Part shown: piece after piece, positions 1-3,000 of the stretch
Position numbering within the stretch: position 1 is the stretch's first letter
Layout of the letters: each line of letters opens with the position of its first letter
DNA from: Escherichia coli
Lineage (GTDB): Bacteria > Pseudomonadota > Gammaproteobacteria > Enterobacterales > Enterobacteriaceae
Reading direction: 5' to 3' (one strand)
NCBI RefSeq assembly: GCF_050920415.1
Contig: NZ_CP169310.1
Length of the DNA stretch: 64,000 nt
Made by a program: the position numbers

Positions 1-3000
1 AGAACCTTCGCCGCAAGGGGCATCACTGCCACGGCCTGACGCACCTGTCCTGGGCAGAACGCAAAATTTTTTACCGGGTTTTGGGTAAAAAATTTTGTGG
101 GCTGTTCATTTACCCTGGACAGTCAGTGCGGCAGGTTGTGGCTGTATCAGCCCCCGGCGACAGGGACTCATACGGGTGTGTGGCACCAGGCAGGCAATGA
201 GCAGGGACCAGCCGCAACGACGTGAAGCGCGTGCGCGAAACGGCGTTGCGCCTTACATCCCGGTGTCTTTTTGCCGGGATGCCGGGAGCGCAGGCCACGG
301 CGCGACAGAGGCGGCGCGACCGGAACGGTCGCTGCAAGCCAGGGTTTCGCGTCAGGGGTGGAAACCCGCTAGGGCGGAGACAGCTCCGCTGGCTCCGTTC
401 ACGACAGCCCGCCCCGCCAGGGGGACGCCCGGGAAAGCCATAAACAGGAGAGGAACGGAAATAAGAAGAGGAAGAAGAAGAACAGTAACAGGCACGGTAA
501 CCACAGAAAAATAACATCAGAAAAAAATATTCCGGACACATCACAAACGGGAAGGGTAACGGGCTACGCGCCAGCGTGGCCCGCTTCCCTTCCGGCAGGC
601 GCCAGCCTGCCAGGGGTTTTCGCGCGGGCTGACAGGCGGCCTCCACCGCCTGCCCCTGTATCACCTGTGCCTGCTGCCCTGAAGGATGTAGTGACCACCG
701 AGGAAAACCGCCTGCTGATTCGCCACAAAATCACAGATTTCATCAACAATCTGCGCGGTGGTGAGCGGTTTCTGCCCCATTTCACGACGCCGCGCATTAA
801 TCACGGCCCTGTAATTACGCAGAATTTCGCGGGTTTCCGTGCTGATATTCATTACCCGTTCTCCCCGTCCAGCGCCTGACGCATCACCCGCATAATCTCA
901 CGTTCTTCCCTGACAAATGCGTCACCGTCGCCCCCGTTCTCGCTCCCTACAGCATGGAGGCGATAAATTTCACTACCAGCCATCACCATCACTTTTTCCA
1001 GCAGCACCGCAGGGACTGTTACAAGACGGTTTACGCGCTTTTCCTCCATCAGTTCATTGACAATATCGGAAACAACTCTGTCACATGCGCCATATACAAA
1101 AGCATCGTCCAGCCGCTGCATGACGGTTTCCAGCTCATCGTCTGTCAGACTCCAGTCCTGGGCTATGTGACGCACATCCCCGCGGGTCAGCACCACGGCA
1201 AAAACGCATTCACTGTCCGGCACGTCTGTATCCAGTACATCGCGGATAACTTCTTTAACAGTACAGTACATGTTCTCGTCTCCTTTACAGGGGCGGCATT
1301 GCCGCCCCGTCCGTTAATCAGTCCAGTGCCGCGTAAATCGCGTTGCATTCGGGGTGAAATTCGATGTGGCTCCACAACTGCGCATCGCGCATCCGGTAAA
1401 GGTGTGTCAGTCCCGCATCCCCGCTGTCGTGGTACAGCCACAACTGGCGGTTAATCACAAGGGAAGTCAGGATGATACCTGCGGCATCAGCACTCACAGT
1501 GCGGTCAAACCAGTTTTCACCGTTGACCAGATGAAAACGGTCGCCATCCGGCATCATGTAACCGCCACCGTCCGGCAGGCGGATGAAATGCCAGAAGCCT
1601 CCCTGATATTCCGGCATCATTTTTTGCGCCAGCGCGTACACATACGCCTCGGCATACAGAAAATCGTTGCCAAACAGGTAAGGCAGAAAGGAGAGACGGT
1701 CACACTCTTCAACGTACAGAGTGACAGGTTTCGCATACTGCATGATGTTTTCCTCCGTTGTTCACATATTCCGCGACACCGGGCGGTGCCGTGCCTCCAT
1801 AAAAGCCGGGCGATAAGGCGGGGATGCACAGGGCGCAAGGGAAGCCGCAGCCTGACGCACACGGCTGGCGGGAGTTGGAGGGTGAGACCGCGAAATCTGA
1901 GCGGGTGAACGACCGGAAAATCACGGCAGACGGGAAGGAGGGACCGGGTGACCGCAGCGGCGAAGCGTACCCTTGCATCCCTGCCAGCCCGGCTAAGATG
2001 GAGGCACGGCACAGCCCGCACACGACGCTGAGGCCACATAACTGAAAAACCACAAGGCCATGCCCTGCATGGCCGGGTAAAGCGGAGCCGGCGGCGACTT
2101 CCTTTGTGCTCTGTCCGGGGACCGGCAGGAAAAAGGCGGGGATTTACCCCGCCAACGTCATCATTTCCGGATTTTTGCCAGGGCATCCGCCATGCTGCGG
2201 ATTTCGGCCCGGGCTTCCCGGACCACCTCCCGCAGAACACCACGGTCAAACCAGCGGCGGGGCGGTTCATCCGGTATACGCAGCACATCGCAGGCCAGCC
2301 CACTGGACAGGATATGCTCAATACAATCGCTGACCAGGTACATTTCCACCGACGAAAAACGTGCTCCCCGGTTCACGATGGCATCGAGCACCACGGGCAG
2401 GTTTTCGTCATCTTCATCGAGCCAGCAGGGGTGATCGCTTTCCTTCACGACCAGGCGAAAGCGGCGCGTCTGGCGGATCAGCAACGTCTGACCGGTGGTG
2501 GTCAGCGCCGCCCGGATACGCCGCGCATCTTCTGCCACCTGGTAACAGATGCTTCGTACCGCATCGTGCACCGCATCAAGAACGGCCCTGATTTCGTCTT
2601 CGGTCAGCCATTCACCCGCATACGGGAAAGACACCTGCGTTCCGTCTGCCGGAAGTACCGGCAGCGACTGCCACTGACTGCCGGACAGTACCAGTTCCGC
2701 CCCGGTTCCGGTCAGTTTGTGAATGGCGGAGGCCAGGTGCGGCGGCAGCACGCCATCGTGGCGGTTAACGAGTAACGTCGCCAGCCGGGGCGCATCCAGC
2801 CGCACGTAAATGCTGATCCAGCCCGGATAGTTCGGATTTCGCTGGTCAACATCCGTCTCTTCCGGCCAGCCCTGCGCCAGCAGCAGGTTACGGGCGTGGC
2901 GACAAATCAGTGCATTCAGCGTTTCGTTCATGATTCATGGTCTCCCTGAATCGCCACCCGCAGGCGGCGATAACATCAGTCGTTTTCGTGTGTGTTGTTT

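What the first reader, a model, noticed from the sequence alone, without database searches (positions are those of the whole stretch)
1..660. GC-rich structured noncoding tract at the start of the leading-region-like gene array
Unlike the rest of the window, the first ~650 bp are very GC-rich with many short inverted repeats and only overlapping ORFs with no coding character. In IncF leading regions, single-strand promoters and ssi sites have this character; the element is unassigned here.
Basis: inference. Interest (0 to 1): 0.3.

Follow-up and report, generated by a model that had tools for sequence, protein, structure and literature searches.

The report
Known single-strand promoter Frpo2, truncated
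The GC-rich tract is the well-studied hairpin promoter region (Frpo2/ssp1b type) that lets an IncF plasmid switch on its early genes while it is still single-stranded after conjugation; it is real and conserved, but ordinary and already described.

Summary
Window 1-660 is the orthologue of the F-plasmid intergenic tract between the 63-aa ORF and ssb. It is collinear with that tract and about 96% identical.

Window 1-167 is 98.8% identical, in reverse complement, to the F Frpo2 fragment used experimentally as a single-stranded-DNA promoter. The window + strand is the transferred (T) strand. On it, bases 5-163 fold into a long imperfect hairpin (z = -9.6).

Three results across 13 family members (F, IncI1 ColIb-P9, Serratia, Salmonella, a metagenome) support the hairpin:
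- Covariation: 76% of cells pair versus 40-51% when the partners are slid.
- 71 cells change on both sides of a pair, versus 25-34 in the slid controls.
- The fold is more stable on the T strand than on its complement in 13 of 13 members.

The window edge cuts the element. About 110 nt of it, and the genes it drives, lie to the left.

The rest of the tract is a GC-rich conserved block, an unstructured purine microsatellite (441-545) and three GC hairpins (550-657) that follow the upstream stop codon.

- It is Frpo-type, not ssiE.
- The tract is not unique in the window; two similar tracts lie at 1744-2160 and 4300-4720.
- It does not drive the window's genes.

Already known; low interest.

The parts
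1..167 (+). Distal part of a class-1 single-stranded-DNA promoter hairpin (orthologue of F Frpo2/ssp1b) on the transferred strand. The 5' arm is 5-75, the apical loop 76-83 and the 3' arm 84-163. The apical stem is A/T-rich (60-75 pairs with 84-99). A conserved unpaired 8-nt bulge, TTCATTTA, lies at 105-112. The window edge cuts the element: about 110 nt more lie to the left.
   Evidence: 98.8% identical over 167 nt to the F Frpo2 fragment, and 78% to F ssiD. mfe -54.3 kcal/mol, z = -9.6, against -46.5 on the complement. Covariation is shown, and T-strand bias in 13 of 13 members.
168..385 (+). Remainder of the repeat unit shared by all class-1 copies. Its first part pairs with the out-of-window left arm to extend the rod. 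It also holds local GC hairpins at 213-250 and 256-281 (CATCCCGGT / GCCGGGATG), plus smaller stems across 282-335.
   Evidence: The two paralogues in the same plasmid align with window 1-347 at 83%. Salmonella Frpo*6 and *7 match 311-385, and F Frpo1 and Frpo2 both extend this far. ColIb-P9 matches 280-347 at 94%. The extended fold is and the helices. Folded alone, this segment is not significantly structured (z = -1.6).
386..440 (+). GC-rich (about 70%) spacer. It is present in F but is not part of the repeat shared among the paralogues.
   Evidence: 92-94% identical to F. It belongs to the variably retained part 386-510. Folded as part of 346-440, z = -1.5.
441..545 (+). Purine-rich, low-GC tract with no structure, containing a GAA/GAG microsatellite. 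On the sense RNA it reads as a C/U-rich, G-poor stretch.
   Evidence: Composition is A 52%, G 22%, C 16%, T 10%, and the mfe is about 0. It differs from F by a 24-nt length change. A comparable purine tract sits at about +420 to +540 beside all five class-1 copies in L001 and F, but it is weak in ColIb-P9.
546..660 (.). Zone of three GC-rich hairpins directly after the stop codon (661-663, minus strand) of the 63-aa ORF. The hairpins are 550-593 (17 pairs), 594-611 (GGCAGGC-N4-GCCTGCC) and 633-652, the last enclosed by 612-616 pairing with 653-657. The zone looks like an operon boundary or 3'-UTR structure.
   Evidence: z = -4.4 on the T strand and -3.8 on the complement, with nearly equal energies (-41.0 and -40.1). 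Window 590-700 (the hairpin zone plus the 3' end of the 63-aa ORF) is 95% conserved in ColIb-P9, and 590-637 recurs at 83% after ardA, again ahead of a class-1 element. The stems are kept with different sequences. No canonical U-tract terminator was called.
661..852 (-). 63-aa ORF, the last gene of the upstream operon (klcA/ardB-type antirestriction gene, then a DUF1380 gene, then this ORF). It marks the right-hand boundary of the noncoding tract.
   Evidence: ORF list. Annotated as a CDS in pCFSAN004180G, F and ColIb-P9.

Best explanation
Window 1-660 is the noncoding region that carries a class-1 single-stranded-DNA promoter of an IncF leading region. It is the orthologue of F-plasmid Frpo2, now also called ssp1b, and belongs to the same family as F Frpo1/ssiD and ColIb-P9 ssi1-3.

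How it most likely works:
- The window + strand is the strand transferred during conjugation, and oriT lies to the left of the window.
- When this strand enters the recipient as single-stranded DNA, bases 5-163 snap back into a long imperfect hairpin. About 110 nt to the left of the window and bases 168-250 extend the hairpin into a rod.
- The duplex stem mimics a double-stranded sigma-70 promoter. Host RNA polymerase initiates there and transcribes leftward, using the transferred strand as template.
- In this plasmid type the transcript runs out of the window into a 76-aa ORF, a DUF3560 gene and a SAM-dependent methyltransferase gene. In F the same promoter feeds ssb, yfjA, yfjB, psiB and psiA.
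- Once the complementary strand has been synthesised the hairpin no longer exists and the promoter is silent. Expression is therefore early and transient (zygotic induction).
- The transcript can also serve as a primer for complementary-strand synthesis.

What is shown and what is inferred:
- Shown here: the homology, the position and strand, the hairpin, its covariation and its preference for the transferred strand.
- Taken from the literature on the F orthologue: the promoter and primer activities.
- Inferred: that this particular copy is active, which genes it drives, and the exact -35/-10 register. My candidate register is an UP-like AAAAAATTTT at 87-96, TTGTGG at 95-100, and GACAGT or TGGACA at 116-123.

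The distal part (441-660) most likely marks the end of the preceding operon. It consists of GC hairpins directly after the stop codon, followed by a C/U-rich RNA stretch with no structure. This reading is also an inference.
For: - Identity: window 1-167 is 98.8% identical to the F Frpo2 fragment in the Frpo-acrIIA4 construct of Samuel et al. 2024. Window 1-255 is 78% identical to F ssiD, and there are matches to ColIb ssi2 and ssi3.
- Collinearity: the whole of 1-660 aligns with F 57838-58520, between the 63-aa ORF and ssb, at about 96% identity.
- Context: a typical leading region, with all genes on the minus strand in the order methylase, klcA-type antirestriction gene, DUF1380 gene, 63-aa ORF, the tract, 76-aa ORF, DUF3560 gene, MTase, ssb, parB-like gene, psiB, hok.
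- Paralogues: two further class-1 copies lie in the same plasmid.
- Fold: z = -10.5 for the restored element, -8.0 for 1-660 and -9.6 for 1-170.
- Family consensus structure: 34 pairs, 18 of them with compensatory changes.
- Controlled pair count: 76% of cells paired versus 40-51% when slid; 71 double-change cells versus 25-34; covariation score 0.186 versus at most 0.082; 0 of 500 shuffles reach the observed values.
- Strand bias: the T strand is more stable than its complement in 13 of 13 members, by 9 kcal/mol on average (p = 0.0002).
- No conventional double-stranded sigma-70 promoter is predicted in 1-2300.
- Literature on the orthologue: deleting Frpo2 abolishes early ssb and yfjA expression (PMC9849209). 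An Frpo2-driven anti-CRISPR works only from the T strand in the leading region (PMC11541004). Class-1 start sites were confirmed by 5' RACE (PMC12672017). ssp1 transcripts prime conversion to double-stranded DNA in vivo (bioRxiv 2026.01.09.698686).
- Prevalence: the junction with the 76-aa ORF module is present in at least 4045 plasmid records.
Against: - No canonical -35/-10 pair is conserved in register across the family, so the promoter boxes cannot be pinned from sequence.
- I could not obtain the text of the primary papers that mapped them.
- The left 110 nt of the element and the genes it drives lie outside the window. They are known only from the 100%-identical plasmid record.
- That left part is only 58-80% identical to F Frpo2. 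It resembles another family variant, so the activity of this mosaic copy is inferred, not shown.
- Bases 171-440 are not significantly structured when folded alone.
- The hairpin zone has no canonical U-tract terminator, and the purine tract is weak in ColIb-P9. The roles proposed for 441-660 are therefore speculative.
Confidence: 0.9

Rival explanations
1. A decayed or silent paralogue. On this reading the tract is a recombination-generated duplicate of Frpo that no longer fires. It would act only as a 3'-UTR or terminator region for the klcA operon, and the downstream module would be expressed by read-through or from another promoter.
For: The copy is a mosaic: the part left of the window resembles a different family variant from the right part. 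Class-1 copies are expected to recombine (PMC9849209). GC hairpins sit directly after the stop codon.
Against: The core hairpin differs at only 2 of 167 positions from the experimentally active F Frpo2 fragment. The left part keeps the family-conserved blocks and helices. The junction is kept in at least 4045 plasmids at 94-98% identity. No double-stranded promoter is predicted that could serve the downstream genes instead.
Confidence: 0.05
2. A structured RNA or a different kind of single-strand initiation site. On this reading the strand-specific fold belongs to a + strand noncoding RNA, or to a PriA/primosome-type (ssiE-like) priming site, and not to an RNA-polymerase promoter.
For: G-T (G-U) pairs that favour the + strand would equally favour an RNA with the same sequence. 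Frpo was first isolated as an ssi site (PMC7690428).
Against: There is no credible Rfam match; the best is che1 at 27 bits against a gathering score of 54, E = 0.48. F ssiE has no match in the window. No sigma-70 promoter is predicted for a + strand transcript. The F orthologue is documented as an RNA-polymerase-dependent promoter.
Confidence: 0.03
3. Protein-coding sequence. On this reading the overlapping ORFs (139 aa on the + strand, 184 aa on the - strand, or the 'hypothetical protein' annotated in F on the T-strand sense) are real genes, and the GC content reflects coding.
For: Long ORFs exist on both strands. RefSeq annotates a 118-aa hypothetical protein (WP_000388237.1) across the homologous F tract.
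Against: None of the ORFs has a Pfam match. Single-base indels between the window and F at about positions 151, 231 and 654, and a microsatellite length change, break the frames. No CDS is annotated in the 100%-identical plasmid. The conservation pattern follows base pairing, not codons.
Confidence: 0.02

Closest known systems
[quoted passage not shown]
   Same: Orthologous. The whole 660-nt tract is collinear with F and about 96% identical, and the core hairpin is 98.8% identical. It occupies the same position after the 63-aa ORF, on the same strand, with the same fold.
   Different: The downstream cargo differs: a 76-aa ORF, a DUF3560 gene and a SAM methyltransferase gene here, against ssb in F. 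The proximal 110 nt, outside the window, are only 58-80% identical to F and resemble another family variant. The GAA/GAG microsatellite is 24 nt shorter.
F plasmid Frpo1 (ssiD, ssp1a; Masai and Arai 1997) and ColIb-P9 ssi1-3
   Same: Same family. Identity is 78% to ssiD over 255 nt and 78-80% to ssi2 and ssi3 over the core. The long hairpin is shared, has an A/T-rich apex and a conserved bulge, and is supported by covariation. ColIb ssi3 occupies the same slot between the 63-aa ORF and ssb.
   Different: These are paralogous or more distant copies in front of other genes. The strongly purine-rich tract of the IncF copies is weak in ColIb-P9.
Class 2 ssDNA promoter (ssp2, 'Frpo3') upstream of klcA/ardB
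   Same: Same general kind of element: a GC-rich hairpin on the T strand in a leading-region intergenic tract. A copy lies in this window at 1773-2108 (82% identical to Frpo'4).
   Different: It shows no sequence similarity to window 1-660. In F, ssp2 and not ssp1 is the reported roadblock to complementary-strand synthesis.
F ssiE (single-strand initiation site near oriT)
   Different: It has no match in the window. In F it lies at 65372-65561, next to oriT.

Membership tests
Class 1 ssDNA promoter (Frpo / ssiD / ssi1-3 / ssp1) | Sequence homology to the reference elements (F ssiD/Frpo1, F Frpo2, ColIb-P9 ssi1-3) | tested here: met
   98.8% over 167 nt to F Frpo2, 78% over 261 aligned nt to ssiD, and 78-80% to ColIb ssi2 and ssi3. 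The whole tract is about 96% identical to the F Frpo2 region.
Class 1 ssDNA promoter (Frpo / ssiD / ssi1-3 / ssp1) | Located in the leading region, on the transferred strand, upstream of genes for which the T strand is the template | tested here: met
   The gene order and strand in the identical plasmid and in F place it there. The orientation of the match relative to the F construct makes the window + strand the T strand.
Class 1 ssDNA promoter (Frpo / ssiD / ssi1-3 / ssp1) | The single strand folds into a long, unusually stable imperfect stem-loop | tested here: met
   Hairpin at 5-163, mfe -54.3 kcal/mol, z = -9.6. The restored 481-nt element gives -128.8 kcal/mol and z = -10.5, with 0 of 100 shuffles as stable.
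Class 1 ssDNA promoter (Frpo / ssiD / ssi1-3 / ssp1) | Stem maintained in evolution, with compensatory changes, and specific to the T strand | tested here: met
   18 of 34 consensus pairs show compensatory changes. 76% of cells pair versus 40-51% when slid, and 0 of 500 shuffles reach the observed values. The T strand is more stable in 13 of 13 members.
Class 1 ssDNA promoter (Frpo / ssiD / ssi1-3 / ssp1) | Double-stranded -35 and -10 boxes reconstituted in the stem | tested here: inconclusive
   The candidate TTGTGG(95-100)-17-GACAGT, with an A/T-rich UP-like apex, scores only 4.2 in my scan. No canonical pair is conserved in register across the 13 members. The published box positions exist only as figures, which I could not read.
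Class 1 ssDNA promoter (Frpo / ssiD / ssi1-3 / ssp1) | RNA polymerase (sigma-70) transcription from ssDNA only: zygotic induction, silence as dsDNA, and use of the transcript as a primer | not testable with these tools
   Shown for the F orthologue in the literature. Here I can only report the consistent negative result that no dsDNA sigma-70 promoter is predicted in 1-2300.
Class 1 ssDNA promoter (Frpo / ssiD / ssi1-3 / ssp1) | Complete element (about 328 nt or more) present at the given coordinates | tested here: not met
   The window starts inside the element. ssiD positions 1-94 and construct positions 167-288 lie to the left of base 1. The element is complete in the source plasmid (L001 11905-12385).
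ssiE-type single-strand initiation site of F | Sequence similarity to F ssiE (D90180) | tested here: not met
   No hit in the window or in L001. In F, ssiE maps next to oriT.
Class 2 ssDNA promoter (ssp2 / Frpo3) | Sequence similarity to the class 2 reference (Frpo'4; the F region upstream of klcA/ardB) | tested here: not met
   The Frpo'4 match lies at window 1773-2108, not in 1-660. Window 1-700 has no internal paralogue in the window.
Intrinsic (Rho-independent) terminator, considered for 546-660 | GC-rich stem-loop followed directly by a U-tract on the sense RNA | tested here: inconclusive
   Strong hairpins are present. The tail after the last hairpin is CGUUUGUGAUGUGU, which the scan does not call. 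ColIb-P9 has no U-rich tail.

The most novel reading that the evidence does not exclude
The roughly 300 nt beyond the classic Frpo repeat may be a functional part of the promoter module and not just a passive spacer. This part comprises the GC-hairpin zone against the preceding stop codon and the purine tract, which has no structure (C/U-rich on the RNA).

It could work in either of two ways:
- As an insulator that stops transcription coming from the upstream ssDNA promoter, by hairpin pausing or Rho loading on a rut-like stretch, so that read-through does not melt the next hairpin promoter.
- As a defined single-stranded zone with no structure that sets how SSB or the polymerase gains access to the hairpin.

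Evidence for the idea: the same layout recurs beside all five class-1 copies in L001 and F, and the hairpin zone recurs after two different upstream genes in ColIb-P9. I found no description of this layout in the papers I read.
Probability: 0.3. Interest if true: 0.35.

Novelty: already known. Interest (0 to 1): 0.1.

Why it matters
Frpo-type hairpin promoters are the switch that lets conjugative plasmids express anti-restriction, SOS-inhibition and other establishment genes within minutes of entry, before the DNA becomes double-stranded. They therefore matter for the spread of resistance and virulence plasmids.

For this window the practical value lies in annotation:
- The tract should be labelled as a class-1 ssDNA promoter (Frpo2/ssp1b type) cut by the window edge.
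- The ORFs predicted inside it should be treated as spurious.
- The window should be read as the oriT-distal part of an IncF leading region. It holds three successive GC-rich T-strand hairpin tracts: this class-1 promoter, a class-2 match at 1773-2108 and a candidate (ssp3-like) at 4300-4720.

Nothing here changes current understanding.

Tried and rejected
- Internal paralogues of the tract within the window: none found by sensitive BLAST. The other copies lie to the left of the window.
- Conventional sigma-70 promoters and intrinsic terminators in 1-2300: no promoter, and no terminator inside 1-660.
- Pinning the -35/-10 boxes with a weight-matrix scan over 13 family members: no canonical pair is conserved in register. 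The recurring candidates are weak: TTGTGG-17-GACAGT, and a TnCATn motif in the conserved bulge.
- Reading the primary mapping papers (Masai and Arai 1997, Nasim et al. 2004, Bikard et al. 2010): not held in the library. The supplements of Couturier 2023 hold the structures only as images, and none are held for Wen 2025. Reviews give no box coordinates.
- Rfam: only a sub-threshold chance hit.
- Pfam on the tract's ORFs: nothing.
- Coding explanation: rejected because of frame-breaking indels relative to F.
- A purine tract as a universal feature of class-1 elements: weakened, because it is faint in ColIb-P9.
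Full report
**Observation**

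Window 1-660 is 61.2% GC. The window mean is 45.5%, and only 1.2% of all 660-nt windows reach this value. It holds 46 inverted-repeat pairs.

Folded as single-stranded DNA it is far more stable than dinucleotide shuffles. For 1-660 the energy is -171.9 kcal/mol, with z = -8.0.

The ORFs that cross it show no sign of coding:
- They have no Pfam match.
- Single-base indels relative to F break their frames.
- No CDS is annotated there in the 100%-identical RefSeq plasmid.

The description is therefore largely right, with four caveats:
- The neighbouring 661-4650 is also 58% GC.
- Two other intergenic tracts, 1744-2160 and 4300-4720, have the same character, with z = -5.5 and -5.8.
- The tract is not uniform. 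Bases 441-545 are 38% GC, 74% purine and show no structure. Significant structure sits in 1-170 (z = -9.6) and 546-660 (z = -4.4).
- The feature is cut by the left edge of the window.

**Context**

The window is 100% identical over its first 4.7 kb to IncFIA/FIB plasmids such as pCFSAN004180G and the plasmid of strain GB089. In that record the region is a textbook leading region, with all genes on the minus strand, in this order:
1. DNA methylase
2. a hypothetical ORF and a further DUF1380 gene
3. a 256-aa ORF
4. klcA/ardB-type antirestriction gene
5. DUF1380 gene
6. 63-aa ORF
7. the tract studied here
8. 76-aa ORF
9. DUF3560 gene
10. SAM methyltransferase
11. ssb
12. DUF905 gene
13. parB-like gene
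14. psiB
15. hok

The window + strand is therefore the template for these genes. That makes it the transferred (T) strand, with oriT to the left of the window.

The tract is extremely common. It matches at least 5000 plasmid records, typically at three places per record. The first 4.7 kb of the window matches 3938 of 5426 complete E. coli genomes, at a median of three places per genome.

**Identity**

I took the reference Frpo/ssi sequences from Supplementary Table 2 and the construct file of Samuel et al. 2024 (PMC11541004) and compared them by BLAST with the window, the identical plasmid and F.
- Window 1-167 is 98.8% identical, in reverse complement, to the F Frpo2 fragment that those authors used to drive an anti-CRISPR from the T strand.
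- Window 1-255 is 78% identical to F ssiD (= Frpo1).
- Window 31-122 is 78-80% identical to ColIb-P9 ssi2 and ssi3.
- F ssiE has no match in the window.

A global alignment shows that the whole of 1-660 is collinear with F 57838-58520. That F segment is the intergenic tract between the 63-aa ORF and ssb. Identity is about 96%, and the only sizeable difference is a 24-nt length change in a GAA/GAG microsatellite.

The same plasmid carries two more class-1 copies, each 83% identical to window 1-347. One lies directly upstream of ssb and one beyond hok.

To the left of base 1 the similarity to F Frpo2 falls to 58-80% and is then lost, because the downstream genes differ. That left part still carries the family-conserved blocks and resembles another family variant. 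The copy is therefore a mosaic, as expected if the paralogues recombine.

The junction with the 76-aa ORF module is the common arrangement. It is found in at least 4045 plasmid records from Escherichia, Klebsiella, Salmonella and other genera. F is the variant that lacks the module.

**Structure**

On the T strand, bases 5-163 form a long imperfect hairpin:
- The apical loop is 76-83.
- A 16-bp A/T-rich apical stem pairs 60-75 with 84-99.
- An 8-nt bulge, TTCATTTA, lies at 105-112.

With the missing left part restored the rod lengthens, and the energy is -128.8 kcal/mol with z = -10.5.

I built a 13-member alignment: the window copy, its two paralogues, F Frpo1 and Frpo2, ColIb ssi1-3, and Serratia, Salmonella and insect-metagenome candidates. 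Three results support a conserved, strand-specific fold:
- RNAalifold gives a consensus hairpin of 34 pairs, 18 of them with compensatory changes.
- Counting the window's own fold on that alignment, 76% of cells pair, against 40-51% when the partners are slid. There are 71 double-change cells against 25-34. The covariation score is 0.186 against at most 0.082, and no shuffle out of 500 reaches the observed values.
- Every one of the 13 members folds better on the T strand than on its complement, by 9 kcal/mol on average (p = 0.0002).

This is what a structure that works in the transferred single strand should look like.

**Mechanism**

What is known comes from the F orthologue and its relatives:
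- Frpo forms a stem-loop that presents -35 and -10 boxes to RNA polymerase (PMC7690428).
- Deleting Frpo2 abolishes early expression of ssb and yfjA in transconjugants (PMC9849209).
- An Frpo2-driven gene works only from the T strand in the leading region (PMC11541004).
- 5' RACE confirmed class-1 start sites in the IncI1 plasmid pESBL (PMC12672017).
- ssp1/Frpo transcripts prime complementary-strand synthesis in vivo (bioRxiv 2026.01.09.698686).

By homology, the window's element should fire as soon as it enters the recipient. It should be transcribed leftward, out of the window, into the 76-aa ORF, DUF3560 and methyltransferase genes, and it should go silent once the DNA is double-stranded. 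Consistent with this, no ordinary sigma-70 promoter is predicted in 1-2300.

I could not fix the promoter boxes:
- No canonical pair is conserved in register across the family.
- The published positions are available only as figures.
- My best candidate has the A/T-rich apex as an UP-like element, TTGTGG at 95-100, and GACAGT or TGGACA at 116-123 on the 3' arm. In that geometry the 5' arm is the template, and transcription runs from the apex towards the base of the stem.
- The conserved unpaired bulge (TnCATn) is an alternative -10.
- Both assignments are inferences.

**The distal part of the tract**

Sequence homology among the paralogues ends near position 385. The layout nevertheless recurs beside all five class-1 copies in the identical plasmid and in F. 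In each there is a GC-rich block, then a purine-rich low-GC tract at about +420 to +540, then GC hairpins against the stop codon of the preceding gene.

The hairpin zone shows the following:
- Window 590-700, which spans the hairpin zone and the 3' end of the 63-aa ORF, is 95% conserved in ColIb-P9 at the same place.
- An 83% copy of 590-637 follows ardA in ColIb-P9, again ahead of a class-1 element.
- The stems are kept with different sequences.
- These hairpins are equally stable on both strands.

The pattern fits an operon-boundary or 3'-UTR structure. Two results argue for caution: there is no canonical U-tract, and the purine tract is faint in ColIb-P9. Any insulator or Rho-loading role is therefore conjecture. 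It is the only part of the finding that I did not find described in the papers I read.

**Verdict**

The element is the already characterised Frpo2/ssp1b-type ssDNA promoter region, truncated by the window edge, in its most common plasmid arrangement. Novelty: already known. Interest: low.

Noticed in passing
window 1744-2160 (core match 1773-2108): This is a second GC-rich (64%) intergenic tract, directly upstream of the klcA/ardB-type antirestriction gene. It is 82% identical to Samuel et al.'s Frpo'4, which corresponds to the class 2 ssDNA promoter (ssp2, 'Frpo3') reported to block complementary-strand synthesis in F. It folds into a long T-strand hairpin (z = -5.5) that is 10.7 kcal/mol more stable than its complement.
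   Followed up: partly
window 4300-4720: This is a third GC-rich structured tract, upstream of the DNA methylase operon. It forms a long T-strand hairpin at about 4366-4590 (z = -5.8). Window 4300-4646 is 97% identical to the F region upstream of its methylase gene, and there is no match in ColIb-P9. It is a candidate for the class 3 promoter (ssp3). ORFs predicted across it (126 aa at 4383-4763, and a 'hypothetical protein' annotated in the plasmid and in F) may be spurious.
   Followed up: partly
window 441-545: A GAA/GAG purine microsatellite here is 24 nt shorter than in F. Comparable purine-rich microsatellites, for example a CAG/TAG repeat at L001 about 9180-9290, lie at the same relative position beside every IncF class-1 copy I examined. 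The tract is weak in IncI1 ColIb-P9.
   Followed up: partly
L003 (ColIb-P9) 9603-9649 and 16662-16771; window 590-700: The GC-hairpin zone that follows the 63-aa ORF is 95% conserved in IncI1 ColIb-P9. Part of it is repeated there after the ardA stop codon. In both places it lies between a gene downstream of a class 2 (Frpo'4-like) match and the next class-1 promoter. The middle hairpin, GGCAGGC-N4-GCCTGCC, is invariant in all four copies.
   Followed up: partly
window 2139-2150 (L001 about 14139-15500): pCFSAN004180G carries an IS421 (IS4-family) insertion with a 12-bp target duplication. It lies inside the small hairpin GGCGGGGATTTACCCCGCC, between the 256-aa ORF and the class 2 promoter. 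The window lacks the insertion and matches the plasmid of strain GB089.
   Followed up: yes
L001 11905-12000 (just left of window base 1): The out-of-window proximal part of the element is only 58-80% identical to F Frpo2 and closely resembles the insect-metagenome variant Frpo'6. The distal part is 98.8% identical to F Frpo2. This mosaic suggests recombination between class-1 paralogues.
   Followed up: partly
L002 (F plasmid) 7808-8164, equivalent to window about 359-691: RefSeq annotates a 118-aa hypothetical protein (WP_000388237.1) on the T-strand sense across the homologous F tract. The frame is not conserved in the window, so this is probably a spurious gene call in a structured noncoding region.
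   Followed up: partly
L001 about 11755-11777 (about 225-245 nt left of window base 1): There is a perfect 7-bp hairpin, GCAGGTC-CCT-GACCTGC, followed by TTTTTT on the + (T-strand-sense) strand. It looks like an intrinsic terminator facing against the leading genes, between the promoter hairpin and the annotated 76-aa ORF. The leader from the hairpin to that ORF is unusually long, about 320 nt against about 120 nt in F.
   Followed up: no
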